Shown here in pieces: positions 9,433 to 59,969 of a DNA stretch of 64,000 bases. A program made the translations under genes and the position numbers. This DNA is from an uncultured Candidatus Actinomarina sp. GTDB taxonomy: Bacteria > Actinomycetota > Acidimicrobiia > Actinomarinales > Actinomarinaceae. Location of the stretch: NCBI GenBank assembly GCA_902626065.1, contig CACODT010000001.1, positions 221,728 through 285,727 on the forward strand. The letters are read 5' to 3'. A model generated the notes under the pieces. It saw only the letters and a program-made list of their open reading frames with translations, made no database searches and was not told the origin of the DNA. Position 1 is the stretch's first letter, and each line of letters opens with the position of its first letter.

Positions 9433-9509
9433 TGGTAGCGGGGGTAGGATTTGAACCTACGACCTCTGGGTTATGAGCCCAGCGAGCTACCAGACTGCTC
9501 CACCCCGCG
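9433..9509 (-). tRNA. tRNA-Met (CAU), initiator type
   Basis: Minus strand reads CGCGGGGTGGAGCAGTCTGGTAGCTCGCTGGGCTCATAACCCAGAGGTCGTAGGTTCAAATCCTACCCCCGCTACCA. It has a cloverleaf with a CAU anticodon, an unpaired 1:72 (C:U), three consecutive G-C pairs in the anticodon stem and an encoded CCA. It closely resembles E. coli tRNA-fMet. Confidence 0.85.
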
Positions 9510-13413: not shown

Positions 13414-13450
13414 ATTTGCATAATAATTTATTTGAATATATATAAAAAAA

Positions 13451-13476
13451 AGAGCCGGCAACGCCGGCTCTTTTTA
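13451..13476 (-). terminator. Rho-independent terminator (bidirectional hairpin) after the ABC substrate-binding gene
   Basis: agagccggc-aac-gccggctct, a 9-bp GC-rich stem flanked by A8 on one side and T5 on the other. Confidence 0.6.
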
Positions 13477-42927: not shown

Positions 42928-44013
42928 ATGCAAAAAGTAAATGGTTCAATTGCGATACTTGGTTCAGGAGAAACAAGTCCTAATTTAGTTTCTGTGCATA
43001 GAAATTTAATAAATAGAATCGATGGTGAAGTAATTGCTTCCTTAATAGATACGCCTTTTGGATTTCAAGAAAATGCTGATCAATTAGTTGATAAATTGAT
43101 TGAATTTTATGATGTAAGTCTAAATTTAGAAATTAACTTGGCTAGCTTTAGAAATAAGAAGTATTTTAAATCAGTTGAATACTTTGAGTTTATAAAAAAA
43201 ATTCAAAGTTCAAATTTTATATTTTCAGGACCCGGAAGTCCAAGTTATGCAACAAAAAATTGGATAGATACAGATGTACCAGAAATTTTTAAAGAAAGAC
43301 TCTACTCCGGAAGTAGCTTAATTTTTGCCAGTGCAGCAGCATCAACTTTAGGTATTAGAACAATTCCAGTCTATGAAATATACAAGGTTGGGATTGACCC
43401 CTACTGGGAGAAAGGTATAAATCTTCTTGAAGTTTTTGATATTGATTGTGTGGTTGTTCCACACTTCAATAATAAAGAAGGTGGAAACCATGACACGAGC
43501 TTAAGTTATCTTGGTGCTAAAAGAATGGAAATTCTACAAGAGATTCAACCAACTAATATATTAGGTATTGATGAGCATACAGCTCTTATAATTGATGCAA
43601 AAGAAAATCTTTTTGAAGTTGAAGGGTTAGGACAAGTCACTGTCATTAATCAAAATGAAACTCAAAACTTTAAGAATGGCGAGAAATATAATTTAAATGA
43701 TCTTAGAAAGTTATTAGAAAATACTGAAATAAAATCTATTAAAGCAAATGCTGACAATGATCAAAATTCTCAAGATGAACAAGTTGAAGATGTTTTAAGA
43801 AAAGAAATAGCTGAATTAAGATTGGAAATTGAAAAGAATAATAAAAATTCAGAAAATATAAATAATTTAATCAATAAATTAATTACTTACCGTATAGAAC
43901 TTAGATCATCTCAAAAATATGAAGAATCAGATATCGTTAGAGATTTTCTTACAGAATCAAATATAGAAATTGAAGATGATAAGAATTCTTCCAGCTGGAA
44001 GTTTAAAGATTAA
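42928..44013 (+). CDS. hypothetical protein; N-terminal domain possibly class-I glutamine amidotransferase/peptidase S51-like, C-terminal coiled-coil
   Basis: ILGSGETSP and FSGPGSPS Gly-rich loops. The last ~100 aa are charged heptad-like (EIAELRLEIEKNNKN...). Confidence 0.3.
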   Translation: MQKVNGSIAILGSGETSPNLVSVHRNLINRIDGEVIASLIDTPFGFQENADQLVDKLIEFYDVSLNLEINLASFRNKKYFKSVEYFEFIKKIQSSNFIFSGPGSPSYATKNWIDTDVPEIFKERLYSGSSLIFASAAASTLGIRTIPVYEIYKVGIDPYWEKGINLLEVFDIDCVVVPHFNNKEGGNHDTSLSYLGAKRMEILQEIQPTNILGIDEHTALIIDAKENLFEVEGLGQVTVINQNETQNFKNGEKYNLNDLRKLLENTEIKSIKANADNDQNSQDEQVEDVLRKEIAELRLEIEKNNKNSENINNLINKLITYRIELRSSQKYEESDIVRDFLTESNIEIEDDKNSSSWKFKD

Positions 44014-44818
44014 TTGAGCCGTATTCACCCAAAATTTTAAATTCTTTGGCTACTTGGCTAAGATTATCCATTAAAAGTTGGTCAATTTTTTTGTCAGTAT
44101 TCTGATAATCTACGTAAAACTTATATTCCCAAGGAGACCCCAAAATTGGTCTTGATTCTAATTTTATAAGATTTAATTTTAGAACATCGAACACAGTTAA
44201 AGCCTTAAGTAAGGAGCCAGGCTCATCTGCTGCTATAAGAATTGCAGAACGAATATTTTTTTCTTCAGAAATTTCAAGTGGTTTTTTTCCTGTCAAAAAA
44301 AATCTTGTATAGTTTTCTTCGTGATTAGATATATTTTTCTCAATTATTGTAAATCTTTCATCATTATCAAAATGATCACCTGCTATCGCCCCAACATCAA
44401 ATGATTTAGTCTCTAATAAACTAATTACACTTCCTGCAGTATCAAACACTGGTTGTAATTCAACATCTAAATCATTTAAATATTTACTACATTGTTGAAG
44501 TGCTTGTGGATGAGATATAACTTTTTTTATATCATCTCTTTTTGTTCCTTTAATACCAATCAGGGCATGGTTTATCTTCTTTTTAATTTCTAAATATATT
44601 TCTAAATTGTGTTCAATTAAACTTTCATAAGCTTCTATAACTGTTCCAACAAGAGAATTTTCAACTGGCAAAAGCCCAAATCCTTCTTGGGTCGTATTTT
44701 TAGAGACCTCCTGAAAGGTTTTACAAGAAACTAATTCGTAATCTGAAAATAATTCTAATAATACAGATTCAGAGTATGAACCTTTTGATCCCTGGTAAAA
44801 AATTTTTTCATTTTTCAT
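44003..44818 (-). CDS. pheA: prephenate dehydratase
   Basis: PDT domain plus a C-terminal ACT domain with the ESRP motif (LESRPILGSPWEYKFYVD). Confidence 0.85.
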   Translation of the reverse strand: MKNEKIFYQGSKGSYSESVLLELFSDYELVSCKTFQEVSKNTTQEGFGLLPVENSLVGTVIEAYESLIEHNLEIYLEIKKKINHALIGIKGTKRDDIKKVISHPQALQQCSKYLNDLDVELQPVFDTAGSVISLLETKSFDVGAIAGDHFDNDERFTIIEKNISNHEENYTRFFLTGKKPLEISEEKNIRSAILIAADEPGSLLKALTVFDVLKLNLIKLESRPILGSPWEYKFYVDYQNTDKKIDQLLMDNLSQVAKEFKILGEYGSINL

Positions 44819-45239
44819 TTATATAATCAATTCCTTTTTTGTAACCATCAATACCTAAACCTACAAATGACTCATCACATATATCGTGAATTAAATTTGT
44901 TTTTCTAAAATTTTCCCTTTTTCTAATATCTGTCATATGAACTTCCACGATAGGTAAATTTAGAAGTAATAATGAATCTCTTATTGCCACACTTGTGTGA
45001 GTATATCCACCAGGATTAATTATCAAACCATCAATAGTTTCATTATTGAAAATATTTTGGATAAATTCACAAATTTCTCCCTCATGATTGGATTGATAAA
45101 AAATTAATTCGTCCTGATTGTTTGAGTAGTCTTCAAGTTCAGAAATTAATTCCTTATAAGTAGTTGTTCCATATTTATCAATTTCTCTTTGCCCAAGAAA
45201 ATTTAAATTTGGACCATTGATGATGACAATTTTACCCAT
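44808..45239 (-). CDS. aroQ: 3-dehydroquinate dehydratase, type II
   Basis: IVIINGPNLNFLGQRE and the HxS/T region. 143 aa. Confidence 0.9.
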   Translation of the reverse strand: MGKIVIINGPNLNFLGQREIDKYGTTTYKELISELEDYSNNQDELIFYQSNHEGEICEFIQNIFNNETIDGLIINPGGYTHTSVAIRDSLLLLNLPIVEVHMTDIRKRENFRKTNLIHDICDESFVGLGIDGYKKGIDYINEK

Positions 45240-46233
45240 TTATTAAAACCTCCAAGAGATCATTTATGTGAAAATCAATCAAAATAGGTTTCTCAATATC
45301 TTGTATTAATACGAATTTAATTATGTCATTTGATACTTTCTTATCATTTGAAATTATCTCTTTTAAATAATTGTTGTCATTTGAAAATTTATAATCTGTT
45401 TTTAGTGATTTCTTATTCAAAAATTCTTCAAACTTATGTTTCACATTGTTATCAAGATGGTACTTTGTCTCAGCTATTTCAAGGCCTTTAAGAATACCAA
45501 TAGCTACAGCCTGTCCATGGGAAACACTGTAATTAGAATCTTTTTCAATTAAGTGTCCTATTGTATGTCCTAAATTTAGAAACATTCTTTCATTACTTTC
45601 TTCAATATCATTGTGTAATATACTATTTTTCACTTTTACACTTTTTTTTATTATTTCATCGATATTTTTCATAAAATCATCAACATATATTAAATCAAGT
45701 ATTGTTCTATCCCCTAAAAAGCCAGCCTTAATGGATTCTATTATTCCATTATTAAGTTCACTTTCAGAAAGGGAATCTAAAAATTCTGAGCAAATCAATA
45801 TTTTTTCTGGAATAAAGAAGGTTCCAATTTGATTTTTACCATAGTCGTTGTTAAAACCATTCTTTCCTCCATGAGCTGCATCGACCATCCCAAGCAACGT
45901 CGACGGTATTAAACAAAGTTTTGCACCACGTTTGAACGTACTAGTTGCAAAACCCACCAAATCACTGAGTACACCTCCACCAATCCCAATGACTTTAGAA
46001 TTTCTATCTAAAGATTGATCAAACATAATTGTCCAGAGCTTTTGTATAGTCTCTAAGTCCTTGGTTGATTCATTTATATCAATTTCAAAAATATTTAAAT
46101 TCTCATCTAGGTTGAGAATTGATGAAAGATTAGAGTCAAGAAATACCAGATGATTATCAGTATTTATATAATTTTTCAGATCTATATATAGATCATTAAA
46201 GTTATTTGAGTAATCTATTTCAGATAGCTTCAT
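45232..46233 (-). CDS. aroB: 3-dehydroquinate synthase
   Basis: GGGVLSDLVGFATSTFKRG NAD-binding Gly-rich loop and metal-binding His residues (HTIGH, SHGQAVA). Confidence 0.9.
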   Translation of the reverse strand: MKLSEIDYSNNFNDLYIDLKNYINTDNHLVFLDSNLSSILNLDENLNIFEIDINESTKDLETIQKLWTIMFDQSLDRNSKVIGIGGGVLSDLVGFATSTFKRGAKLCLIPSTLLGMVDAAHGGKNGFNNDYGKNQIGTFFIPEKILICSEFLDSLSESELNNGIIESIKAGFLGDRTILDLIYVDDFMKNIDEIIKKSVKVKNSILHNDIEESNERMFLNLGHTIGHLIEKDSNYSVSHGQAVAIGILKGLEIAETKYHLDNNVKHKFEEFLNKKSLKTDYKFSNDNNYLKEIISNDKKVSNDIIKFVLIQDIEKPILIDFHINDLLEVLING

Positions 46234-46729
46234 TTTTTAACCACGTGTTTTGAATAATTGTTTCCGCTATCATTTTCTCTTTTTTATTTTTGATATCGAT
46301 AATATGTTTCGACTGGTTATATAAATTTTCACGCAATTTATAAAGTTCTGATATCTCCTCTTTACCTTTTTTTACAAGCGGACGCTCTGAATTTGAAATT
46401 CTTTTCCATAAATTCTCAAATGTATCTTTTAGATAAAAACTAAGTTCTGAATTTTTGACTTCATCAAGAATATGTGAGACCTCAAGAGAACCTCCTCCAA
46501 GAGCAATTACGGAATCATTATTTGGCAATGCTTCAAAAGTTTTAAGTTCAATATTACGAAAATATTTTTCACCTTTTGTTTGAAAGATTTTATTTATACT
46601 TCCATATTTTTTTTCAATATTTTCATCTAAGTCAATTGTGTTTACATTTACTATCTGTTTTATTTTTTTGAGGATCGATGTTTTACCAGAACCCATGAAT
46701 CCAACTAAATAGATATTATTCTGTTTCAT
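46220..46729 (-). CDS. aroK: shikimate kinase
   Basis: GFMGSGKTS Walker A and ALGGG motif. 169 aa. Confidence 0.85.
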   Translation of the reverse strand: MKQNNIYLVGFMGSGKTSILKKIKQIVNVNTIDLDENIEKKYGSINKIFQTKGEKYFRNIELKTFEALPNNDSVIALGGGSLEVSHILDEVKNSELSFYLKDTFENLWKRISNSERPLVKKGKEEISELYKLRENLYNQSKHIIDIKNKKEKMIAETIIQNTWLKNEAI

Positions 46730-47894
46730 AGTTCATTTTCCAAGTCTGATTGTCCATGTCAAAATCATCAACATTCAATTTTGAAATACTATCAAAGTTT
46801 TTTACAATTTCTTTTTTGCTGTCCCCTCCAGTTTTAAGTAATAAGTTTCTTAAAATTTCAAATGCCATTGCACTTTCAAAAATTGGGACAGCTCTTGGTA
46901 CCGCACATGTATCTGAACGTTCGTAAACTGTCTCTGTTTCACCCTTTGATGATAAATTTACGCTTTTTATCGGAGTTAAAGTCGTACTAATTGGTTTTAA
47001 ATATGCTTTAACTATAATTTCTTCTCCATTAGTCATACCACCTTCAAAACCTCCAAGATTATTGGATTCTTTTTTGATAGATCCATCTTGTAAAACATAT
47101 TGATCTTGAACATCTGTTCCAAAGTTTCTTGAAGCTTCTATTCCATTACCTATTTCAACAGCTTTTACACTTTGTATTGACATAAATATTCTGGCTAGAT
47201 TTGCATCTAACTTTCTATCCCAATGTACAAAGCTTCCTAATGTAGGAGGTACTCCAGATGCTATTGTTGTGATTGATCCACCAAGAGTATCTTTCTTTTT
47301 TCTTGCTTCTAGTATCTCATTCTCCATATCTTTCCCAGATTTTTCATCTGGACAAGATACAGACGATTCAGTGACTTTTGATTGTAGTTCTTGTAAATCA
47401 ATTATTTTTTCTTGAACATAATCAACTTTTCCAATGCTAGAAACATATCCACAAATATTAATTTCAAAAGTTTCTAAAATTTGAGCCGCTATTGCTCCTA
47501 GAGCACATCTCATAGCTGTTTCCCTCGCACTTGATCTTTCCAGTACTAATCTGATGTCCGAACTATTATATTTTGCAGTTCCTATCAAGTCAGCATGTCC
47601 AGGTCTTGGTACTACATAAGGTTCGATGTCTTTGTCTTTCCAATTTTTCCAATCATTATTTTTAATTTTTAATGTGATTGGCCCCCCAGTAGTTAAGTTG
47701 TTTATTACTCCCGAGGTTATCTCAACTTCATCACTTTCAATATTCATTCTTCCACCTGAACCTAGGCTTTTTTGTCTTCTTTTGAGAAAACTATCAATAT
47801 AGTCTTTTGTCACGTGAAATCCAGCAGGTAGGCCTTCGATGATGCCTGTTAACTCAGGCCCATGGCTTTCACCGGCAGTTAAGAATCTAATCAT
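46716..47894 (-). CDS. aroC: chorismate synthase
   Basis: MIRFLTAGESHGPELTGIIEGLPAG N-terminal signature. 392 aa. Confidence 0.9.
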   Translation of the reverse strand: MIRFLTAGESHGPELTGIIEGLPAGFHVTKDYIDSFLKRRQKSLGSGGRMNIESDEVEITSGVINNLTTGGPITLKIKNNDWKNWKDKDIEPYVVPRPGHADLIGTAKYNSSDIRLVLERSSARETAMRCALGAIAAQILETFEINICGYVSSIGKVDYVQEKIIDLQELQSKVTESSVSCPDEKSGKDMENEILEARKKKDTLGGSITTIASGVPPTLGSFVHWDRKLDANLARIFMSIQSVKAVEIGNGIEASRNFGTDVQDQYVLQDGSIKKESNNLGGFEGGMTNGEEIIVKAYLKPISTTLTPIKSVNLSSKGETETVYERSDTCAVPRAVPIFESAMAFEILRNLLLKTGGDSKKEIVKNFDSISKLNVDDFDMDNQTWKMNYETE

Positions 47895-48675
47895 TGTGAC
47901 CTTCTAGTAATTTGTATAACTCATCATATATATCTAAAACTTGTAAGTTAAGATTTGTCCATATGTTAAAAGACAATACTGCTTGGCAGATAAGCATCCC
48001 TGTACCATCATAAGACTCAAATTCTGAAATAAATTTTTCGAAAAAAGAATTTCTATAACCATATCCAATATTTAAAAATAATTCTAGATTTGTAAATTGA
48101 TTTGTATCTAAATCAAGTGATGCCGTGGATAAATGAGACATCCCAACTGGAGTAGTATTAATCACTAAATCAATTTCAGGAGCAAGTTCTTTTGCATTTA
48201 AATATGAAATTGTCTCATCAGTTTGATTTCTACTTACAACATAAGTTTTTGTTTTATGAGTTGATAAAGCATATTTAATTGCTTTGGAACTTCCACCACT
48301 TCCCAAGATTAATATATTTTTTTTATTCAAATCATATCCAATTTTTTTCAAAAATAGTGTAAAACCTTCAAAGTCAGTATTGAAAAGTTTAATTTTATCA
48401 TCTGTTATTTTTACAGTGTTCGTAGATCCTATTTTTTGGACATGTTCATCAATATTAAAATTGATATCTAAATTTAGTATTTTTTCTTTGTATGGAATTG
48501 TAATATTAAATCCATCAAGATCAGTTATTAATGTATCTACTGATTCTGCTGTTAAATTCTCAATCTTAAATGGCTCATATTTACTATCCAAATTGTTCAT
48601 ATTAAACAAATAGTTCTGAATAATTGGAGAATAAGTTTTTTCGAGTGGCCATCCAATAATTCCATAATTACTCAT
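47887..48675 (-). CDS. aroE: shikimate dehydrogenase
   Basis: MSNYGIIGWPLEKTYSPIIQN (substrate-binding SP motif) and GSGGSSKA NADP-binding. Confidence 0.8.
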   Translation of the reverse strand: MSNYGIIGWPLEKTYSPIIQNYLFNMNNLDSKYEPFKIENLTAESVDTLITDLDGFNITIPYKEKILNLDINFNIDEHVQKIGSTNTVKITDDKIKLFNTDFEGFTLFLKKIGYDLNKKNILILGSGGSSKAIKYALSTHKTKTYVVSRNQTDETISYLNAKELAPEIDLVINTTPVGMSHLSTASLDLDTNQFTNLELFLNIGYGYRNSFFEKFISEFESYDGTGMLICQAVLSFNIWTNLNLQVLDIYDELYKLLEGHND

Positions 48676-49942
48676 TTATTTCACCTCCTAATAGCTTTAT
48701 ATCTTCAAAAAAAGAAGGATATGAATCATTTATGCACTCAAAATTATCAGGAATTATTTTTTTATTGAGTCCTATGTTTGCAACTATTGCTGTCATAGCA
48801 ATTCTATGATCATCAAGTGTTTCAATATTTCCTTTTTTTAATTTTTGGATACCTTGAATCTCAAACCCATCATCAAGCAACTTAATATGACCACCTAAAT
48901 TAAGAATGAAATTTTTCATCGCATCTAATCTATTTGATTCTTTAACTTTTAGCTCTTCAGCGCCAACTACTTTTGTCAATCCTTTGGCTTGTGAGGCAAT
49001 TAAAGTAAAAATTGGAATCTCGTCTATTAAATCGGGAATTTCGTCTTTGCTAACTGTTGTTCCATTAAGTATTGACTTATTTATTTTTATATCACCTATT
49101 ACTTCATTGTTTTCTTCTCTAATATTTAAGATCTCAATTTTTGCTTTCATTCTTTTTAAGACTTTTATAAATCCCAGTCTTCTTTCATTAATTAGCATGT
49201 TGGAAAGAATTATTTCTTTACCTCTTAGTAAACCTAGAGCAATTAAAAAAGCACCTGAAGATATATCGCCTGGAATAGTAATGTTCAATGGTTCTAATTT
49301 AGTTGTTGGTGGGACAGTTAATGTATTTCCAAGCCTCAATATATCTACACCCATAGCTACAAGCATTCTCTCAGTATGATCTCTAGTAGGAACGGTTTCT
49401 TCGATAAGGGTAGGTTCATTATGATAAAGGGAAGCGAGGATTAATGCACTTTTGACCTGAGCACTTGGTACTTTAGTATTTTGAAAACTGAATGAGTATT
49501 CTTTTGGATGAAAATTTATTGGTAAAAAATTATTTTTTATCTTCATCTGAGCTCCATGACCAACCAATAAATCAGTAATTCTATTCATTGGTCTTTTATT
49601 TAATTGAGTGCTGCCAATTAATGTTGAAGAAAATTTTTGTTTAGATAATAATCCAATAAGCAATCTAGCGGTTGTTCCAGAATTCTTAGCATTAAGCTCA
49701 TTGTTTGGTTTTTTTAATCCATTTATTCCTTGACCAGTTATTGAAACATTATCCTCGATTTTTACATCAGCCCCCATTTGTTCAACAATTTTTAAAGAGG
49801 CTTTTGTATCTTCGCTTATTAATAAATTCTTAATTACAGATGTGCCCTCTGCTAAAGCAGAAAACAAAATTGCCCTATGGGATATAGATTTATCTCCTAT
49901 CACTTGAACTGTTCCGGATAACCCTCGATTAATAAATTTCAA
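48668..49942 (-). CDS. aroA: 3-phosphoshikimate 1-carboxyvinyltransferase (EPSP synthase)
   Basis: LSGTVQVIGDKSISHRA motif. The start is proposed at the TTG at 49942, which forms TTGA coupling with the tyrA stop. The ATG at 49987 would add an atypical 15-aa N-terminus. Confidence 0.85.
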   Translation of the reverse strand: MKFINRGLSGTVQVIGDKSISHRAILFSALAEGTSVIKNLLISEDTKASLKIVEQMGADVKIEDNVSITGQGINGLKKPNNELNAKNSGTTARLLIGLLSKQKFSSTLIGSTQLNKRPMNRITDLLVGHGAQMKIKNNFLPINFHPKEYSFSFQNTKVPSAQVKSALILASLYHNEPTLIEETVPTRDHTERMLVAMGVDILRLGNTLTVPPTTKLEPLNITIPGDISSGAFLIALGLLRGKEIILSNMLINERRLGFIKVLKRMKAKIEILNIREENNEVIGDIKINKSILNGTTVSKDEIPDLIDEIPIFTLIASQAKGLTKVVGAEELKVKESNRLDAMKNFILNLGGHIKLLDDGFEIQGIQKLKKGNIETLDDHRIAMTAIVANIGLNKKIIPDNFECINDSYPSFFEDIKLLGGEINE

Positions 49943-50772
49943 CTTAATGGTCTCTCTCCAAACTTTTCTGATAAAGCTCTTCTCCACTCAACTGACGAGG
50001 TGAGGTATTCTATTAATTGATTTTTCTCCTGAAGTGTCATTAATGAGGATATTTCATCAATTAGTGAAATAAGAAATTTATTTATATTTTCAGAGTTTGT
50101 GTTGTACATGTCTATTATCATTTCTGGATTTGTTCTTGTTAGCCTTGTTGCGCCATCGAATCCACCAGCTGCTAAACCCATAATTTCATCTATTTCATAA
50201 TCTTTTTTAGCTACCCCAACCAATGCTGAACTTATTAAATGTGGCAAATGACTGGTAATAGATAGTATTTCATCATGTTTTTTTCGATCTATCCACACTT
50301 CTTTGCAGTTCAATATGTTTACTAAATCTCTGGCGATTTTTTTTGAATTATCATTCATAGATTCTGTTTCACAAAGTAAAAATGTTGCATCATCGTACAT
50401 TTCTGGTGTAGGTTCCCAGATTCTATTATCAGCTAAACCACACAAAGGATGACCACCTACAGAAGGTATTTTGGAGTTATCCATAAGATCACAAATTGAT
50501 TCTTTAGTACCACCAATATCAATTAATAATTTTGAATCATAAATTTCATTACCCTCTGATAGGAATGACACTATATTATTTATCGGCATAGATAGAACTG
50601 TCACATCATAACTTTCTTCTTTAGATTTTGTATCAATACCAAATTTTTCAGCTCTATTTTCTGCTTCCTTATCAACGTCCTGACCAAAAACATCTATACC
50701 TTTACTTTTTAAATTGATTCCAAGGTTTGCACCCATCAATCCAAGGCCAATTATTTTTACTTTGTTAATCAT
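49939..50772 (-). CDS. tyrA: prephenate dehydrogenase
   Basis: MINKVKIIGLGLMGANLG Rossmann N-terminus and the PDH catalytic domain with His (SHLPHLIS). Confidence 0.8.
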   Translation of the reverse strand: MINKVKIIGLGLMGANLGINLKSKGIDVFGQDVDKEAENRAEKFGIDTKSKEESYDVTVLSMPINNIVSFLSEGNEIYDSKLLIDIGGTKESICDLMDNSKIPSVGGHPLCGLADNRIWEPTPEMYDDATFLLCETESMNDNSKKIARDLVNILNCKEVWIDRKKHDEILSITSHLPHLISSALVGVAKKDYEIDEIMGLAAGGFDGATRLTRTNPEMIIDMYNTNSENINKFLISLIDEISSLMTLQEKNQLIEYLTSSVEWRRALSEKFGERPLS

Positions 50773-51788
50773 ATTTTTAATGACCTACCAACTACTTCAG
50801 CCATCGAACTTACTTTTTTCCCTAAGTCAGTAAGTTCTGGTGGAGTTAAAGCTTGTGGCCCATCACATAATGCTTCATCTGGCCTTGGATGTATCTCAAT
50901 AAGAAGACCGTCTGCTCCTGCAGCAATAGCTGCTAAAGCAATTGGAGCAACTAAATTATTTGCCCCAGTCCCATGGCTTGGATCAGCAATAACTGGTAAA
51001 TGTGTATTCATTTTCAAATAAGGAATAGCATTTATATCAAAAGTATTTCTTGTGGCTGTTTCAAAGGTTCTGATACCTCTCTCACATAAAATAACATTTT
51101 CATTACCTCTCGTAAGGATATATTCGGAAGCTAAAAGTAGCTCTTCAAGGGTTGCGCTCATTCCTCTTTTTAATAAAACTGGAAGTTTTGATTCTCCAAC
51201 AGCTTCCAAGAGTTTAAAGTTTTGCATATTTCTCGCTCCGATTTGAAGTACATCAACATATTTCTCCATCATCTCAAGATGCTGAACGTCCATAATTTCA
51301 CTGAATAATGGTAAATTATGTAAATCTGCAGCTTCTTTAAGCAATACTAGACCTTCTTCACCAAGACCTTGAAAACTGTATGGAGAGGTTCTTGGTTTGA
51401 ACGCACCACCTCTTAATCCATTTCCTCCAGCTTGAACAACAGCTTCAGCTGTTTCTAACGTTTGTTCTTGATATTCTGCGCTATCTGGCCCTGCTATAAA
51501 TGCAAGTTCTTTACCTCCCACAACTAAATCTTTGATTTTTACTTCTGTATTTGATGCTTTATAGGTTTTACTTGCAAGCTTGTAAGATCTTCCGATTGGA
51601 ATAACCTGATGAACGTTATCTAACAATCGCATAACTCCACGATTATCTTCAATTACCTTCCCATGGACAGCAACTACAGTCCTTTCAACTCCATAAAGAA
51701 CTTTTGGCTCATGACCTTGTTCAATTGCCTTTGCCTTTACCTTTTCAATGTCTTCCTCAGAAGCAGCTTGCTTCATTACTACGATCAA
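50769..51788 (-). CDS. aroG: 3-deoxy-7-phosphoheptulonate (DAHP) synthase, type I-beta with N-terminal ferredoxin-like regulatory domain
   Basis: KPRTSPYSFQG, ADPSHGTG and the DAHPS/KDO8PS TIM-barrel. The start is set at the TTG at 51788, 6 nt after AGGAGG. The track's ATG at 51833 would translate through a terminator hairpin. Confidence 0.8.
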   Translation of the reverse strand: MIVVMKQAASEEDIEKVKAKAIEQGHEPKVLYGVERTVVAVHGKVIEDNRGVMRLLDNVHQVIPIGRSYKLASKTYKASNTEVKIKDLVVGGKELAFIAGPDSAEYQEQTLETAEAVVQAGGNGLRGGAFKPRTSPYSFQGLGEEGLVLLKEAADLHNLPLFSEIMDVQHLEMMEKYVDVLQIGARNMQNFKLLEAVGESKLPVLLKRGMSATLEELLLASEYILTRGNENVILCERGIRTFETATRNTFDINAIPYLKMNTHLPVIADPSHGTGANNLVAPIALAAIAAGADGLLIEIHPRPDEALCDGPQALTPPELTDLGKKVSSMAEVVGRSLKI

Positions 51789-51800
51789 TTTGTTCCTCCT

Positions 51801-51828
51801 AAAAAAAAATCGGGCTTTTGCCCGATTT
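51801..51828 (-). terminator. intrinsic terminator immediately upstream of the aroG RBS (attenuator terminator candidate)
   Basis: The minus-strand RNA is AAAUCGGGC-AAAA-GCCCGAUUU followed by U9, then AGGAGG and a TTG start. Confidence 0.6.
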
Positions 51829-51852
51829 GACACAACGTTACTTTAGGGCAGC

Positions 51853-51894
51853 TTATATGTGCGCTCTAAAGTAAAAGTATGTGTTAATTTTCAT
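51853..51894 (-). promoter_or_regulatory. 13-codon leader peptide ORF MKINTYFYFRAHI (tandem Tyr-Phe-Tyr-Phe codons)
   Basis: An ATG at 51894..51892 and a TAA at 51855..51853 lie between the aroH stop and the terminator. Its YFYF codons overlap one arm (CUUUAGAGC) of an upstream hairpin. Confidence 0.4.
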
Positions 51895-51935
51895 TGTGGT
51901 AATGATACCATGTATGACAGATTTGCAAATAGTTT

Positions 51936-52277
51936 TTATCTATCTGGTCTTAAATTCTTAGCTTCACCTAAATAGATATGAGTTACTTCAATTTCATCAT
52001 TGTAAGTTACTAAAACTCTTATACAACCTTCAAGGTCATTAATTATGTTTGGTGCCTTTGTATCAATTGCAGATAATTGATGGTGACCAAGTTCTCTGAG
52101 AGCCTTTGCTGGAAAAGCGGCATCAAGATCATTGGTAACAGTAAAAATTACAGAAACAATTTTTGAAATATCAAGGTTGTTATTTTCTACAATCGTATTA
52201 AATAATTCTTTTGTAGATTTTAATATATCGTTTTCTGTGTTCTCTACTGCAGCAATTGCTCCCCTTATTCCATTCAT
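51936..52277 (-). CDS. aroH: chorismate mutase, AroH class (monofunctional)
   Basis: MNGIRGAIAAVENT...FPAKALRELG...CIRVLV...LRPDR is collinear with B. subtilis AroH. The start is moved to the ATG at 52277 because the track's extra 13 aa translate the groEL terminator hairpin. Confidence 0.8.
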   Translation of the reverse strand: MNGIRGAIAAVENTENDILKSTKELFNTIVENNNLDISKIVSVIFTVTNDLDAAFPAKALRELGHHQLSAIDTKAPNIINDLEGCIRVLVTYNDEIEVTHIYLGEAKNLRPDR

Positions 52278-52298
52278 GACAACTAATGATAAAAAAAA

Positions 52299-52326
52299 AG
52301 AGTGGACGTTGTCCACTCTTTTTTTT
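52299..52326 (-). terminator. intrinsic terminator after groEL (bidirectional hairpin, A9/T8 flanks)
   Basis: agagtggac-gtt-gtccactct, a 9-bp stem, with the aroH ATG about 20 nt downstream. Confidence 0.6.
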
Positions 52327-57966: not shown

Positions 57967-59763
57967 TTATTCTACAGTAACTGACTTTGCAAGGTTTCTT
58001 GGTTGATCAATCGATTGGCCATTCTTGTTAGCCACGTGATAAGCAATAAATTGTAGAGGTATGATCGAGATCAAAGTAGTTAGTAATTCATTACTATCTG
58101 GTAGAGCGACATAATCATTTGATATATTCTCAAGTTTCTCTGACTCACTATCTCCAATAGCAATTACATATGCTCCCCTAGCAATAACCTCTTGTACATT
58201 ACTTGTCGTCTTATCAAGTAGATGATTTTGACTAGCAGTAACTATTACAGGGGTTCCTTCTTCTATTAAAGCGAGTGTGCCGTGTTTAAGCTCTCCTGCT
58301 GCTAATGCCTCAGCATGAAGATAGGAAATTTCTTTTAATTTTAAGGCACCTTCAGCTGCTAAAGCATAATCTAATCCTCGACCAATAAAATAGATATCAT
58401 TCTTTTTATAGATTTTTTCAGATATTTCTTTTATTTGACCTTCACAAGCCATGGTCTGATCTATTAGGTTTGGGAGTTCTGCAATTTCATCAAATAAAAC
58501 ATCTAACTTATTTTGAGCGTCCCAGTGTTTTGCTATAACAAGCTGAGAAACAAGCATACCTAAATAAGCTTTAGTAGAAGCTACGCCTATCTCTGGACCT
58601 ACATGTAAATAAAATACACTATCAGCCATTCTTGCTAGCGAACTACCAACCACATTTACTAAAGCAAGAACATGTGAGCCATTTTCCTTTAATAATTCTG
58701 TAGCAGCAATAGTGTCCATGGTTTCTCCAGACTGGGAAATTACAATACCTAAATCGTTTTTTCCCACGATTGGTTCTCTATATCTAAACTCGGAAGCAAG
58801 CTCAACACTTACCGGAACTCCAAGAACTTTCTCAAATAGGTCTTTTCCAAACAAACCGGCATGATAGGCTGTTCCGCATGCAACAATCCAAATTTTTTCA
58901 AATTTTGAAGCCTCGTCTAACTTAATCGGGATTTCATCTGAGGATGCTTCAAGCCTTCCCGATAAAGTTCTTTCGATTACCTCAGATTGTTCAAGTATTT
59001 CCTTATACATAAAATGGTCATACCCTGACTTCTCTGCTTCAGATACCTCCCAATCAATTTCTTGAATTTCTCTCTGGATTTCATTTAATTCAGAGTCGAA
59101 CAACTTATATTTACCATTTTTAATTTCTACAAAATCACCGTTTTCAAGAAATATCATTTTCTTTGTATGTTCCAAGATTGCTGCTGAATCAGATGCTAGA
59201 AAAACCTCATTATCACCAACTCCAAGAACTAAAGGACTCATTAATCTTCCTGCAACAATAGTGTCCTCTTCTTTAGTTGTAGTTACAACAAGGGCATATG
59301 TTCCCTCAAGTGTTTTTGCTACATCTACGACTGTTTTTAAAAGATTTCCATTCCATTTTCTGCTTAACTCTATAGCTACGACTTCCGTGTCGGTGTCTGA
59401 ATTAAATTTAAATCCGTCGTTTATAAGATCTTTCTTGATTTCTGCATAATTCTCAATAATGCCATTGTGAATGATTGCAAATTCATCATTGTTGTCTGAA
59501 TGTGGATGTGCATTCACATCATTTGGTACTCCATGAGTTGCCCATCTTGTATGACCAATCCCAATGTTTCCTAAAATTTGCTTATCTTCTAAATGTTCTT
59601 TTAAGACATCGAGTTTACCCTCTTTTTTTTCAATCGTAATTTTGCTTCCATCAGAAATTGCTATTCCTGCCGAATCATATCCCCGATATTCCAAACGAGA
59701 AAGACCATTGATTAAAATTGGTAAAGGTTCTTTAGGGCCTGAATACCCTACAATTCCACACAC
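57967..59763 (-). CDS. glmS: glutamine--fructose-6-phosphate aminotransferase
   Basis: GTG start then CGIVGY (N-terminal Cys nucleophile), two SIS domains and a C-terminal ...KSVTVE. An SD (GGAG) lies 5 nt upstream. Confidence 0.95.
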   Translation of the reverse strand: MCGIVGYSGPKEPLPILINGLSRLEYRGYDSAGIAISDGSKITIEKKEGKLDVLKEHLEDKQILGNIGIGHTRWATHGVPNDVNAHPHSDNNDEFAIIHNGIIENYAEIKKDLINDGFKFNSDTDTEVVAIELSRKWNGNLLKTVVDVAKTLEGTYALVVTTTKEEDTIVAGRLMSPLVLGVGDNEVFLASDSAAILEHTKKMIFLENGDFVEIKNGKYKLFDSELNEIQREIQEIDWEVSEAEKSGYDHFMYKEILEQSEVIERTLSGRLEASSDEIPIKLDEASKFEKIWIVACGTAYHAGLFGKDLFEKVLGVPVSVELASEFRYREPIVGKNDLGIVISQSGETMDTIAATELLKENGSHVLALVNVVGSSLARMADSVFYLHVGPEIGVASTKAYLGMLVSQLVIAKHWDAQNKLDVLFDEIAELPNLIDQTMACEGQIKEISEKIYKKNDIYFIGRGLDYALAAEGALKLKEISYLHAEALAAGELKHGTLALIEEGTPVIVTASQNHLLDKTTSNVQEVIARGAYVIAIGDSESEKLENISNDYVALPDSNELLTTLISIIPLQFIAYHVANKNGQSIDQPRNLAKSVTVE

Positions 59764-59785: not shown

Positions 59786-59940
59786 GGTTAAAATAAAGAC
59801 TGCTTTAAATTGTCTCTGTTCAAAAATTTCTCTTTGTTTTTAAACAATTTATATCGACCGCAGAGCCGAGTATGCATCCGCCGAATTTTTCGATAACATA
59901 CTTCCTCGTCACCTCGTTAAAGGCCAGGCGCTATATTGCT
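59786..59940 (-). ncRNA. glmS ribozyme (GlcN6P-dependent self-cleaving riboswitch) in the glmS leader
   Basis: The minus strand carries AUAGCGCCUGGCC...AACGAGGUGACGAGGAAGUAUGUUAUCGAAAAAUUCGGCGGAUGCAUACUCGG. These match glmS ribozyme core elements (AGCGCC at the cleavage site, GACGAGGA and UUAUCGAAUUUUCGGCGGAUGC). The 3' boundary is approximate. Confidence 0.75.
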
Positions 59941-59969
59941 CGTTATAAAGAGTATATCGATAAGTATGG

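What the first reader, a model, noticed from the sequence alone, without database searches (positions are those of the whole stretch)
51801..51935. Tyr/Phe-rich leader peptide plus terminator directly upstream of DAHP synthase: candidate transcription attenuator
Between aroH and aroG (both minus) lies a 13-codon ORF, MKINTYFYFRAHI, with four consecutive aromatic codons. These codons overlap one arm of a hairpin (CUUUAGAGC ... GCCCUAAAG). An intrinsic terminator (AAAUCGGGC-AAAA-GCCCGAUUU followed by U9) then ends 1 nt before the aroG AGGAGG. This is the textbook layout for ribosome-mediated attenuation by Phe/Tyr-tRNA supply. It would control entry into the shikimate pathway from inside the operon.
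Basis: partly seen in the sequence, partly recalled or inferred. Interest (0 to 1): 0.6.

Follow-up and report, generated by a model that had tools for sequence, protein, structure and literature searches.

The report
Phe/Tyr leader-peptide attenuator of aro operon
A tiny 13-codon gene rich in tyrosine and phenylalanine codons, followed by a transcription stop signal, sits in front of the aromatic amino-acid pathway operon of the marine bacterium Candidatus Actinomarina; it most likely switches the operon on when those two amino acids run short, a mechanism already known in other bacteria.

Summary
On the minus strand, between chorismate mutase aroH and a nine-gene operon (DAHP synthase to pheA), lie four parts:
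- a 13-codon ORF, MKINTYFYFRAHI (51894-51853);
- a long hairpin, P1;
- a strong intrinsic terminator (51828-51807 plus U-tract);
- the DAHP synthase Shine-Dalgarno sequence, directly after the U-tract.

The window is from Candidatus Actinomarina. All 49 related Actinomarinales loci keep the whole layout:
- A -35/extended -10 promoter ends 6-8 nt before the leader ATG, so the leader ORF is probably translated from a leaderless mRNA.
- The in-frame run [Y/F]-F-Y-F is kept, with TAC/TAT synonymous changes and one 3-nt length difference upstream of it.
- A stop codon lies 0-3 nt before an invariant GCCC.
- P1 and the terminator are kept.

Constrained folding gives the classical logic. A ribosome stalled on the last aromatic codons frees GCCC to pair with the terminator's GGGC. 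A ribosome at the stop codon, or no ribosome, leaves the terminator to form.

Weak points: the antiterminator is only 4-6 bp and invariant, so covariation cannot test it, and there are no transcript data.

The closest known case is the aroR-aroF attenuator of Corynebacterium glutamicum. I rate this a new member of a known kind, of modest interest.

The parts
51924..51929 (-). -35 box TTTGCA of the leader promoter
   Evidence: Promoter scan. In 31 distinct promoter sequences from 49 loci the box is TT[TG][GT][CT]A, with the two T invariant, always 16 nt from the -10 box, while the spacer sequence varies.
51902..51910 (-). Extended -10 box TGgTATCAT
   Evidence: TGnTAnnAT is invariant in 31 of 31 distinct promoters. 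It ends 6 nt (1 case), 7 nt (24) or 8 nt (6) before the leader ATG. The predicted transcription start is therefore at or 1-2 nt before the AUG, giving a leaderless mRNA. This is an inference; no transcription-start data exist.
51853..51894 (-). Leader ORF MKINTYFYFRAHI with its TAA stop
   Evidence: The ATG is invariant, the ORF is 13-15 codons in all relatives, and the stop is TAA or TAG, 0-3 nt before the invariant GCCC.
51868..51879 (-). Regulatory codons TAC TTT TAC TTT (Tyr-Phe-Tyr-Phe)
   Evidence: The run reads YFYF, FFYF or YFFYF in the relatives. Phe-Tyr-Phe is invariant. The only changes are TAC/TAT (synonymous) and Tyr/Phe swaps; no non-aromatic replacement was seen.
51830..51884 (-). 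Hairpin P1 (segments 1:2, the anti-antiterminator). It has a lower stem ACACA/UGUGU, an upper stem UUACUUUAG/CUAAAGUAA and a top G.GC/GCCC.
   Evidence: Minimum-free-energy folds of the window and of all 30 leader variants give the same architecture, and RNAalifold gives the same consensus. In L036 the upper stem carries two compensatory changes, A-U to G-C and C-G to U-A (my reading of the fold). Evidence for covariation in the lower stem is weak: native pairings average -14.06 kcal/mol against -12.68 for chimeras.
51846..51850 (-). Segment 2 core UGCCC, the 5' strand of the predicted antiterminator
   Evidence: GCCC is invariant in all 30 leaders although its partner strand in P1 varies: AGAGCGC, AGUGAGC, AGAUUGC, GGAGC. 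It pairs with GGGC(A) only when a ribosome is stalled on the aromatic codons.
51819..51823 (-). Segment 3 core GGGCA, shared by the antiterminator (3' strand) and the terminator (5' arm)
51801..51828 (-). Intrinsic terminator AAAUCGGGC-AAAA-GCCCGAUUU plus U-tract (segments 3:4)
   Evidence: 9 bp, 5 of them G-C, with a tetraloop. It is conserved in all relatives, with one compensatory U-A to G-C change in L036.
51795..51800 (-). Shine-Dalgarno sequence AGGAGG of DAHP synthase
   Evidence: It is unpaired in the minimum-free-energy fold and lies 6 nt before the TTG start codon at 51788.
44003..51788 (-). The regulated operon: DAHP synthase (type I-beta with ferredoxin-like domain), tyrA, aroA, aroE, aroC, aroK, aroB, aroQ, pheA
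   Evidence: ORFs that abut or overlap; Pfam assignments for all nine proteins.
51936..52277 (-). Upstream gene aroH (chorismate mutase type I). It is not part of the attenuated unit.
   Evidence: Pfam CM_1, E = 1.5e-35. Its ATG at 52277 lies 13 nt after the U-tract of the groEL terminator.

Best explanation
This is a classical ribosome-mediated (leader-peptide) transcription attenuator. It senses charged tRNA-Phe and tRNA-Tyr and controls the nine-gene operon from DAHP synthase to pheA in Candidatus Actinomarina.

Proposed sequence of events:
1. Transcription starts from a conserved sigma-70-type promoter that ends 7 nt before the leader AUG. The leader ORF is therefore translated from a leaderless mRNA.
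2. When Phe and Tyr are plentiful, the ribosome runs to the UAA stop. There it covers the GCCC that lies 3 nt downstream. After release, hairpin P1 re-forms. Either way the terminator's GGGC stays free, the terminator hairpin forms and transcription stops at the U-tract just before the DAHP synthase Shine-Dalgarno sequence.
3. When charged tRNA-Phe or tRNA-Tyr is short, the ribosome stalls on the Phe-Tyr-Phe codons. This holds the 5' strand of P1 open and leaves GCCC exposed. GCCC then pairs with GGGC as soon as GGGC is transcribed, the terminator cannot form, and RNA polymerase reads into the operon.
4. Transcripts that enter from upstream (aroH) have no Shine-Dalgarno sequence for the leader ORF and should always terminate here.

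Shown: the sequence elements, their conservation, and the predicted folds. Inferred: the transcription start, translation of the leader, and the switching itself.
For: - Anatomy.
- Operon content matches the sensed amino acids. It holds tyrA, pheA and the whole common pathway, and no trp genes.
- The promoter boxes are invariant at a fixed spacing in 31 distinct promoters from 49 loci. The -10 box ends 6-8 nt from the invariant ATG.
- The leader ORF is kept in frame in all 30 distinct leaders. The aromatic run is [Y/F]FYF or YFFYF, synonymous TAC/TAT changes occur, and ORF length is 13-15 codons. The ATG-to-run distance takes only two values, 18 or 21 nt. The stop is always 0-3 nt before GCCC.
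- The leader is more conserved (84%) than the flanking coding DNA (68-72%; third positions 47-49%).
- Fold: z = -4.86, with the same two-hairpin fold in all variants.
- Constrained folds of the nascent transcript show the GCCC:GGGC helix at -6.7 to -10.7 kcal/mol in the seven lineages examined (-5.8 to -10.7 across all 30 leaders). Its probability is at least 0.89 in 29 of 30 leaders (0.44 in L029) only when the ribosome sits on the last aromatic codons. It is at or near 0 (at most 0.09) with no ribosome and 0 with a ribosome at the stop codon.
- The terminator lies between a promoter and the first gene with no room for another promoter, and strong terminators are rare in the window.
- Precedents in the same phylum: the C. 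glutamicum aroR leader peptide (Phe-Tyr-Phe) upstream of the DAHP synthase gene aroF, and Streptomyces leader peptides that are transcribed leaderless.
- Many long ORFs in this window start 6-8 nt after a TAnnnT hexamer, which fits common leaderless initiation.
Against: - The antiterminator is only 4-6 bp across a loop of about 22 nt. At equilibrium the full-length RNA always prefers the terminator, so the switch has to work kinetically.
- GCCC and GGGC never vary, so no covariation test of the antiterminator is possible.
- Covariation for P1 is thin. It rests on two compensatory pairs in one divergent lineage (L036) and on a small native-versus-chimera energy difference.
- The aromatic codons also form the 5' strand of P1, so their conservation is confounded with RNA-structure constraint.
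- An aromatic run in a short ORF is not unusual by itself.
- The near-invariant loop GCACAUAUAAG is not explained by the model.
- There is no mapping of transcription starts or 3' ends, and no expression data.
- There are only four regulatory codons.
Confidence: 0.75

Rival explanations
1. P1 with its near-invariant loop is the sensor itself. It would be a binding site for a small ligand (a riboswitch-like element) or for an RNA-binding regulatory protein. Binding would stabilise or disrupt P1 and so control the terminator. The short ORF would be incidental, or only a by-product of the U- and A-rich stem.
For: The loop GCACAUAUAAG and the GCCC are nearly invariant across lineages in which flanking third codon positions are close to saturation. 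The leader-peptide model does not explain the loop conservation. The aromatic codons are part of the stem, so RNA constraints could account for their conservation. An aromatic run in a short ORF is common by chance.
Against: The ATG is invariant and sits at a fixed 6-8 nt from an invariant -10 box. The reading frame, the Tyr/Phe identity of every variant codon, the single 3-nt length difference upstream of the run, and the stop position next to GCCC are all kept. In the L011 group the Phe-Phe codons lie in an unpaired bulge and are still kept. P1 is a simple hairpin with no multi-helix pocket. No Rfam family matches.
Confidence: 0.1
2. The terminator is simply the end of the aroH (and groESL read-through) transcript. 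The operon is expressed by constitutive leakage through it, the promoter-like site and the short ORF have no regulatory role, and P1 is a stabilising 3' structure.
For: The terminator follows aroH by only about 110 nt. No other terminator lies between aroH and DAHP synthase. At equilibrium the terminator always forms.
Against: A promoter with invariant boxes is conserved upstream of the terminator, with no other gene between them. The leader is more conserved than the coding DNA around it. The ORF features are conserved. There is no room for a promoter between the terminator and the Shine-Dalgarno sequence, so a nine-gene essential pathway would depend on leakage through a strong terminator of 9 bp plus a U-tract.
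Confidence: 0.07
3. The leader ORF regulates DAHP synthase mainly at the level of translation or mRNA stability, as an upstream-ORF effect or by Shine-Dalgarno occlusion, rather than by transcription termination.
For: One paper describes the C. glutamicum aroR as a 'translational regulatory leader peptide'. CCUAAAG in the 3' strand of P1 is complementary to UUUUAGG, which overlaps the Shine-Dalgarno sequence (my reading).
Against: A canonical G+C-rich hairpin plus U-tract is conserved in every relative. The Shine-Dalgarno sequence is unpaired in the minimum-free-energy fold. The leader stop codon is about 50 nt from the Shine-Dalgarno sequence, so coupling is unlikely.
Confidence: 0.05

Closest known systems
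Corynebacterium glutamicum aroR-aroF attenuator (Neshat et al. 2014, as summarised in PMC11802643; also PMC4046766 and PMC3890552)
   Same: Same phylum (Actinomycetota). A short leader peptide containing Phe-Tyr-Phe lies directly upstream of a DAHP synthase gene. Ribosome stalling at Phe/Tyr codons is reported to raise transcription under Phe limitation. Phe-Tyr-Phe is also the invariant core of the Actinomarina leader.
   Different: From my own knowledge, not tested here, the C. glutamicum aroF enzyme belongs to a different DAHP synthase subfamily. The enzyme here is type I-beta with an N-terminal ferredoxin-like domain. The regulated unit here is a nine-gene operon that also carries tyrA and pheA. 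The genome here is 33% G+C and the leader is very short (94 nt from AUG to the end of the U-tract). The two are probably analogous rather than orthologous.
Escherichia coli pheL-pheA and pheST leader-peptide attenuators (Rfam Phe_leader)
   Same: Same mechanism class: a short ORF rich in Phe codons, alternative 1:2, 2:3 and 3:4 hairpins, and an intrinsic terminator before a Phe-pathway gene.
   Different: No Rfam leader family matches, even at E up to 10. The leader here mixes Tyr and Phe codons (four in all), whereas my recollection, not checked here, is that pheL has seven Phe codons. Translation here is probably leaderless rather than dependent on a Shine-Dalgarno sequence. The target is the whole shikimate, Tyr and Phe operon starting with DAHP synthase. 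In E. coli, DAHP synthase genes are controlled by the TyrR and TrpR repressors, not by attenuation.
Leaderless leader peptides of Streptomyces and Corynebacterium (trpL, leuL, ilvL)
   Same: Leader peptides of 12-18 residues, transcribed without a 5' UTR and followed by hairpins and a U-stretch. For ilvBNC, leader peptide formation without a ribosome-binding site has been reported (reference cited).
   Different: Those sense Trp, Leu or Ile/Val. The 2005 comparative survey of Actinobacteria found no RNA element for Phe or Tyr operons.

Membership tests
Ribosome-mediated (leader-peptide) transcription attenuator | A short ORF upstream of a biosynthetic operon, enriched in codons for that pathway's end products | tested here: met
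   The 13-codon ORF carries Tyr-Phe-Tyr-Phe. The operon encodes tyrA, pheA and the common pathway.
Ribosome-mediated (leader-peptide) transcription attenuator | The regulatory codons and the reading frame are conserved in relatives | tested here: met
   All 30 distinct leaders from 49 loci keep [Y/F]FYF or YFFYF in frame. Synonymous changes occur, and the ATG-to-run distance is 18 or 21 nt.
Ribosome-mediated (leader-peptide) transcription attenuator | The leader ORF is translated (Shine-Dalgarno sequence, or a 5'-terminal AUG on a leaderless mRNA) | tested here: inconclusive
   There is no Shine-Dalgarno sequence. The conserved promoter has its -10 box ending 6-8 nt before the invariant ATG, which predicts a leaderless mRNA. 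Leaderless leader peptides are the rule in Actinobacteria. No transcription-start or ribosome-profiling data are available.
Ribosome-mediated (leader-peptide) transcription attenuator | An intrinsic terminator between the leader ORF and the first structural gene | tested here: met
   A 9-bp stem, tetraloop and U-tract at 51828-51801, conserved, with one compensatory change.
Ribosome-mediated (leader-peptide) transcription attenuator | A mutually exclusive antiterminator whose formation depends on where the ribosome sits | tested here: met
   GCCC:GGGC has probability at least 0.89 in 29 of 30 leaders (0.44 in L029) with the ribosome on the last aromatic codons. It is at or near 0 (at most 0.09) with no ribosome and 0 with a ribosome at the stop codon. 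The helix is only 4-6 bp and invariant, so covariation cannot support it.
Ribosome-mediated (leader-peptide) transcription attenuator | Read-through rises when the cognate charged tRNA is scarce | not testable with these tools
   This needs Term-seq or RNA-seq, or reporter assays under Phe/Tyr limitation.
Rfam Phe_leader and other curated leader families | A match to the family covariance model | tested here: not met
   cmscan at gathering thresholds over the window, and at E up to 10 over 51700-52050, returned no leader family.
T-box riboswitch (tRNA-sensing antitermination, usual for aro genes in Firmicutes) | A match to the T-box model, with a specifier loop and T-box sequence in a leader of about 200 nt | tested here: not met
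   No T-box hit. The whole leader is 94 nt.
C. glutamicum aroR-type leader | A Phe-Tyr-Phe leader peptide directly upstream of a DAHP synthase gene in an actinobacterium | tested here: met
   Phe-Tyr-Phe is invariant in the leader. DAHP synthase follows it directly. The organism is Actinomarinales.
C. glutamicum aroR-type leader | Sequence homology of the leader RNA or peptide to aroR | not tested

The most novel reading that the evidence does not exclude
The conserved P1 hairpin, with its near-invariant loop GCACAUAUAAG and invariant GCCC, might itself be a sensor. It could bind an aromatic amino acid or a related metabolite, or a so far unknown RNA-binding protein. It would then act with, or instead of, the leader peptide. 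That would make it a new class of small aromatic-amino-acid-responsive RNA in streamlined marine Actinobacteria.
Probability: 0.08. Interest if true: 0.7.

Novelty: new member of a known kind. Interest (0 to 1): 0.35.

Why it matters
Candidatus Actinomarina is an abundant, uncultured marine actinobacterium. The two near-complete single-contig assemblies are about 1 Mb, and from general knowledge such streamlined genomes carry few transcription factors. A compact element of about 130 nt, counting promoter and leader, appears to govern the whole shikimate, Phe and Tyr pathway. This shows how such cells can keep amino-acid feedback control without a dedicated regulator protein.

It extends the Phe/Tyr leader peptide in front of DAHP synthase beyond Corynebacterium, the only actinobacterial example I found. 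It also gives a marker that can be tested directly in ocean metatranscriptomes: the ratio of leader reads to operon reads would report Phe/Tyr limitation in situ.

The mechanism itself is textbook, so the advance is in annotation and ecology rather than concept.

Tried and rejected
- Rfam. At gathering thresholds on the whole window only a glmS ribozyme and a tRNA were found. At E up to 10 on the leader region only chance hits appeared (STnc300, snoRNAs, mir-217). No Phe_leader and no T-box.
- More distant DAHP synthase loci (Chloroflexi, Ignavibacteria, Planctomycetes, Selenomonadaceae and others, 43-57% identity). None has a comparable aromatic leader ORF upstream. As far as sampled, the element is confined to Actinomarinales.
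- Metagenome scan seeded with the most divergent lineage (L036), meant to find variants for a covariation test of GCCC:GGGC. It returned only ordinary Actinomarina at 73% and unrelated taxa at about 50%, with no new leader diversity.
- Protein search with DAHP synthase. The 120 listed hits were all at least 75% identical, so it opened no intermediate lineages.
- Native-versus-chimera test of P1 pairing. The difference was small (-14.06 against -12.68 kcal/mol), so I do not claim strong covariation for the lower stem.
- Statistical test of the aromatic run alone. Not significant.
- Search for a second copy of the motif, or for other attenuator-like terminators, in the window. None found.
- TRAP-like repeated GAG/UAG triplets. 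Not seen by eye in the leader.

Full report
**What is there**

All features are on the minus strand.
- The aroH stop codon TAA is at 51938-51936.
- A promoter-like site follows: TTTGCA (51929-51924), a 16-nt spacer, then TGgTATCAT (51910-51902).
- Seven bases later an ORF starts at ATG 51894 and ends at TAA 51855-51853. It encodes MKINTYFYFRAHI.
- The RNA then folds into a long hairpin, P1 (51884-51830). Its 5' strand contains the codons AAC ACA TAC TTT TAC TTT AG.
- A 9-bp intrinsic terminator with a tetraloop comes next (51828-51807), with its U-tract running to 51801.
- AGGAGG (51800-51795) follows directly, then the TTG start of DAHP synthase at 51788.
- The 141-nt region folds at -38 kcal/mol, z = -4.86, and 0 of 200 shuffles fold as well.

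Three of the nine U belong to the terminator stem. AGGAGG abuts the U-tract. The hairpin is larger than described.

**Context**

The window is about 33% G+C. Its DAHP synthase is 99% identical to that of single-cell and metagenome-assembled genomes named Candidatus Actinomarina.

Gene order on the minus strand:
- glmS, with a glmS ribozyme in front of it;
- alr, tsaE, tsaB, rimI, tsaD (named from my reading of the translations, not checked by a family search);
- groES, groEL;
- aroH (chorismate mutase type I);
- the leader;
- DAHP synthase (type I with a ferredoxin-like domain), tyrA, aroA, aroE, aroC, aroK, aroB, aroQ, pheA.

The downstream unit therefore encodes the whole common pathway plus the Tyr and Phe branches, and no trp genes. 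This matches a leader that carries only Tyr and Phe codons.

groEL has its own strong terminator (52322-52296). The aroH ATG (52277) lies 13 nt after that terminator's U-tract. aroH, the leader and the operon are therefore not one simple operon.

**Comparative evidence**

Genome and metagenome scans gave 49 Actinomarinales loci, with DAHP synthase 73-99% identical. Every one keeps the layout.

- *Promoter.* There are 31 distinct promoter sequences. The -35 box is TT[TG][GT][CT]A, the spacer is always 16 nt but varies in sequence, and TGnTAnnAT is invariant. The -10 box ends 6 nt (1 case), 7 nt (24) or 8 nt (6) before an invariant ATG. This places the transcription start at or next to the AUG, so the leader ORF would be read from a leaderless mRNA. 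That is usual for actinobacterial leader peptides. Many long ORFs in this window show the same -10-to-ATG spacing.
- *Leader ORF.* It is 13-15 codons. Its aromatic run reads YFYF, FFYF or YFFYF, and Phe-Tyr-Phe is invariant. Changes within the run are TAC/TAT (synonymous) or Tyr/Phe swaps only. The distance from the ATG to the run is 18 or 21 nt. The stop codon (TAA or TAG) is always 0-3 nt before an invariant GCCC.
- *Degree of conservation.* Among 14 representative lineages the leader is 84% identical pairwise. The aroH 3' end is 68%, DAHP synthase DNA 72%, their third positions 47-49%, and the promoter-side intergenic DNA 59%.
- *Taxonomic range.* DAHP synthase loci from other phyla (43-57% identity) have no such leader.

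**Structure and switching logic**

All 30 distinct leaders fold into the same two hairpins. RNAalifold returns the upper stem of P1 (CUUUAG.G.GC / GCCCUAAAG) and the terminator.

I modelled the ribosome as covering the RNA from the 5' end to 13 nt past the first base of the P-site codon. I folded the nascent transcript up to the terminator loop. The results:
- No ribosome: P1 forms, and the probability of GCCC:GGGC is at or near 0 (at most 0.09).
- Ribosome at the stop codon: GCCC is covered, and the probability is 0.
- Ribosome with its A site on the last, or second-to-last, aromatic codon: (U)GCCC pairs with GGGC(A). The stabilities were -6.7 to -10.7 kcal/mol in the seven lineages, and -5.8 to -10.7 across all 30 leaders. 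The probability was at least 0.89 in 29 of 30 leaders and 0.44 in L029.

This is the 1:2, 2:3, 3:4 logic of the trp and phe attenuators. GCCC is invariant even though its partner strand in P1 varies (AGAGCGC, AGUGAGC, AGAUUGC, GGAGC). That fits a second role for GCCC as the antiterminator strand.

**Weak points**

- The antiterminator is short, and at equilibrium the full-length RNA always prefers the terminator. The switch has to be kinetic.
- GCCC and GGGC never vary, so covariation cannot test their pairing.
- Covariation for P1 rests mainly on one divergent genome, L036. It has A-U to G-C and C-G to U-A changes in the upper stem, and a U-A to G-C change in the terminator. The native-versus-chimera difference is small.
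- The aromatic codons are part of a stem, so codon and structure constraints are confounded. In the L011 group, however, the Phe-Phe codons sit in an unpaired bulge and are still kept.
- A four-codon aromatic run in a short ORF is expected by chance about 2.5 times per window.
- The near-invariant loop GCACAUAUAAG remains unexplained.
- No transcript data were available.

**Rivals**

- A ligand- or protein-binding P1 (confidence 0.10) would explain the loop. It would not explain the invariant AUG at the predicted transcription start, the kept reading frame or the stop-codon placement.
- A plain aroH terminator with leakage (0.07) does not explain a conserved promoter placed upstream of the terminator, nor the strong purifying selection on the leader.
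- Purely translational control (0.05) is unlikely. The terminator is canonical and conserved, and the Shine-Dalgarno sequence is unpaired.

**Comparison with known systems**

The kind is known. The closest case is the C. glutamicum aroR leader peptide (Phe-Tyr-Phe) upstream of the DAHP synthase gene aroF. There, read-through rises under Phe limitation. E. coli pheL-pheA and pheST use the same mechanism, but no Rfam leader model matches here. A 2005 survey found no Phe/Tyr RNA elements in Actinobacteria, and I found no paper linking Actinomarina to attenuators.

I therefore file this as a new member of a known kind. It is a leaderless Phe/Tyr leader-peptide attenuator that controls the whole aro, tyrA and pheA operon in Actinomarinales.

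**Verdict**

The attenuator interpretation is supported, with confidence 0.75. The claim that it acts 'from inside the operon' should be replaced: it is the 5' leader of its own transcription unit, and its terminator probably also ends aroH transcripts. Interest is modest, at 0.35.

Noticed in passing
window 59796-59943 (-): A glmS ribozyme (Rfam RF00234, 90.9 bits, E = 1e-19) lies directly upstream of the glmS ORF (57967-59763) in this low-G+C actinobacterium.
   Followed up: no
window 52296-52322 and 52277-52291 (-): groEL ends with a strong terminator flanked by an A-tract and a T-tract, so it also scores as a terminator on the + strand. The aroH ATG (52277) lies 13 nt after the U-tract. 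A TATCAT hexamer sits 8 nt upstream of the ATG and there is no Shine-Dalgarno sequence. aroH may therefore be leaderless, from a promoter that overlaps the groEL terminator (TGGACA-18-TATCAT).
   Followed up: partly
L034 and L035, leader region (about 2893-2988): Two single-cell genomes (AG-349-A01, AG-426-D23) carry TTTA instead of TAAA in the 3' strand of P1 (GCCCUUUAG). This breaks the usual upper stem and shifts P1 to another register. Their native P1 is weaker than most chimeras. They may be naturally de-repressed variants.
   Followed up: partly
window, many gene starts (for example 2722+, 6952+, 42928+, 57961-, 34963-, 12374-, 8728-): Thirty-one ORFs of at least 80 aa, several of them evidently internal in-frame starts, begin 6-8 nt after a TAnnnT -10-like hexamer. 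This suggests that leaderless mRNAs are common in this genome.
   Followed up: partly
window 51857-51867 (-), loop of P1: The loop sequence GCACAUAUAAG is almost invariant in all lineages. ACAUAU resembles the 5' strand of the lower P1 stem and can pair with its 3' strand (UGUGU) when the ribosome is stalled. Its role is unexplained.
   Followed up: partly
window 13448-13474 (both strands): A G+C-rich hairpin, AAAAGAGCCGGC-GTT-GCCGGCTCTTTT, has A and T tracts on both sides and scores as a terminator on both strands.
   Followed up: no
window 9436-9509 (-): A tRNA gene (Rfam RF00005, 65.1 bits).
   Followed up: no
window 61632 (+): The only other short ATG-ORF in the window with a run of at least 4 aromatic codons is [23 protein letters not shown]. 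It is not next to a terminator in my scan and is probably a chance ORF.
   Followed up: no
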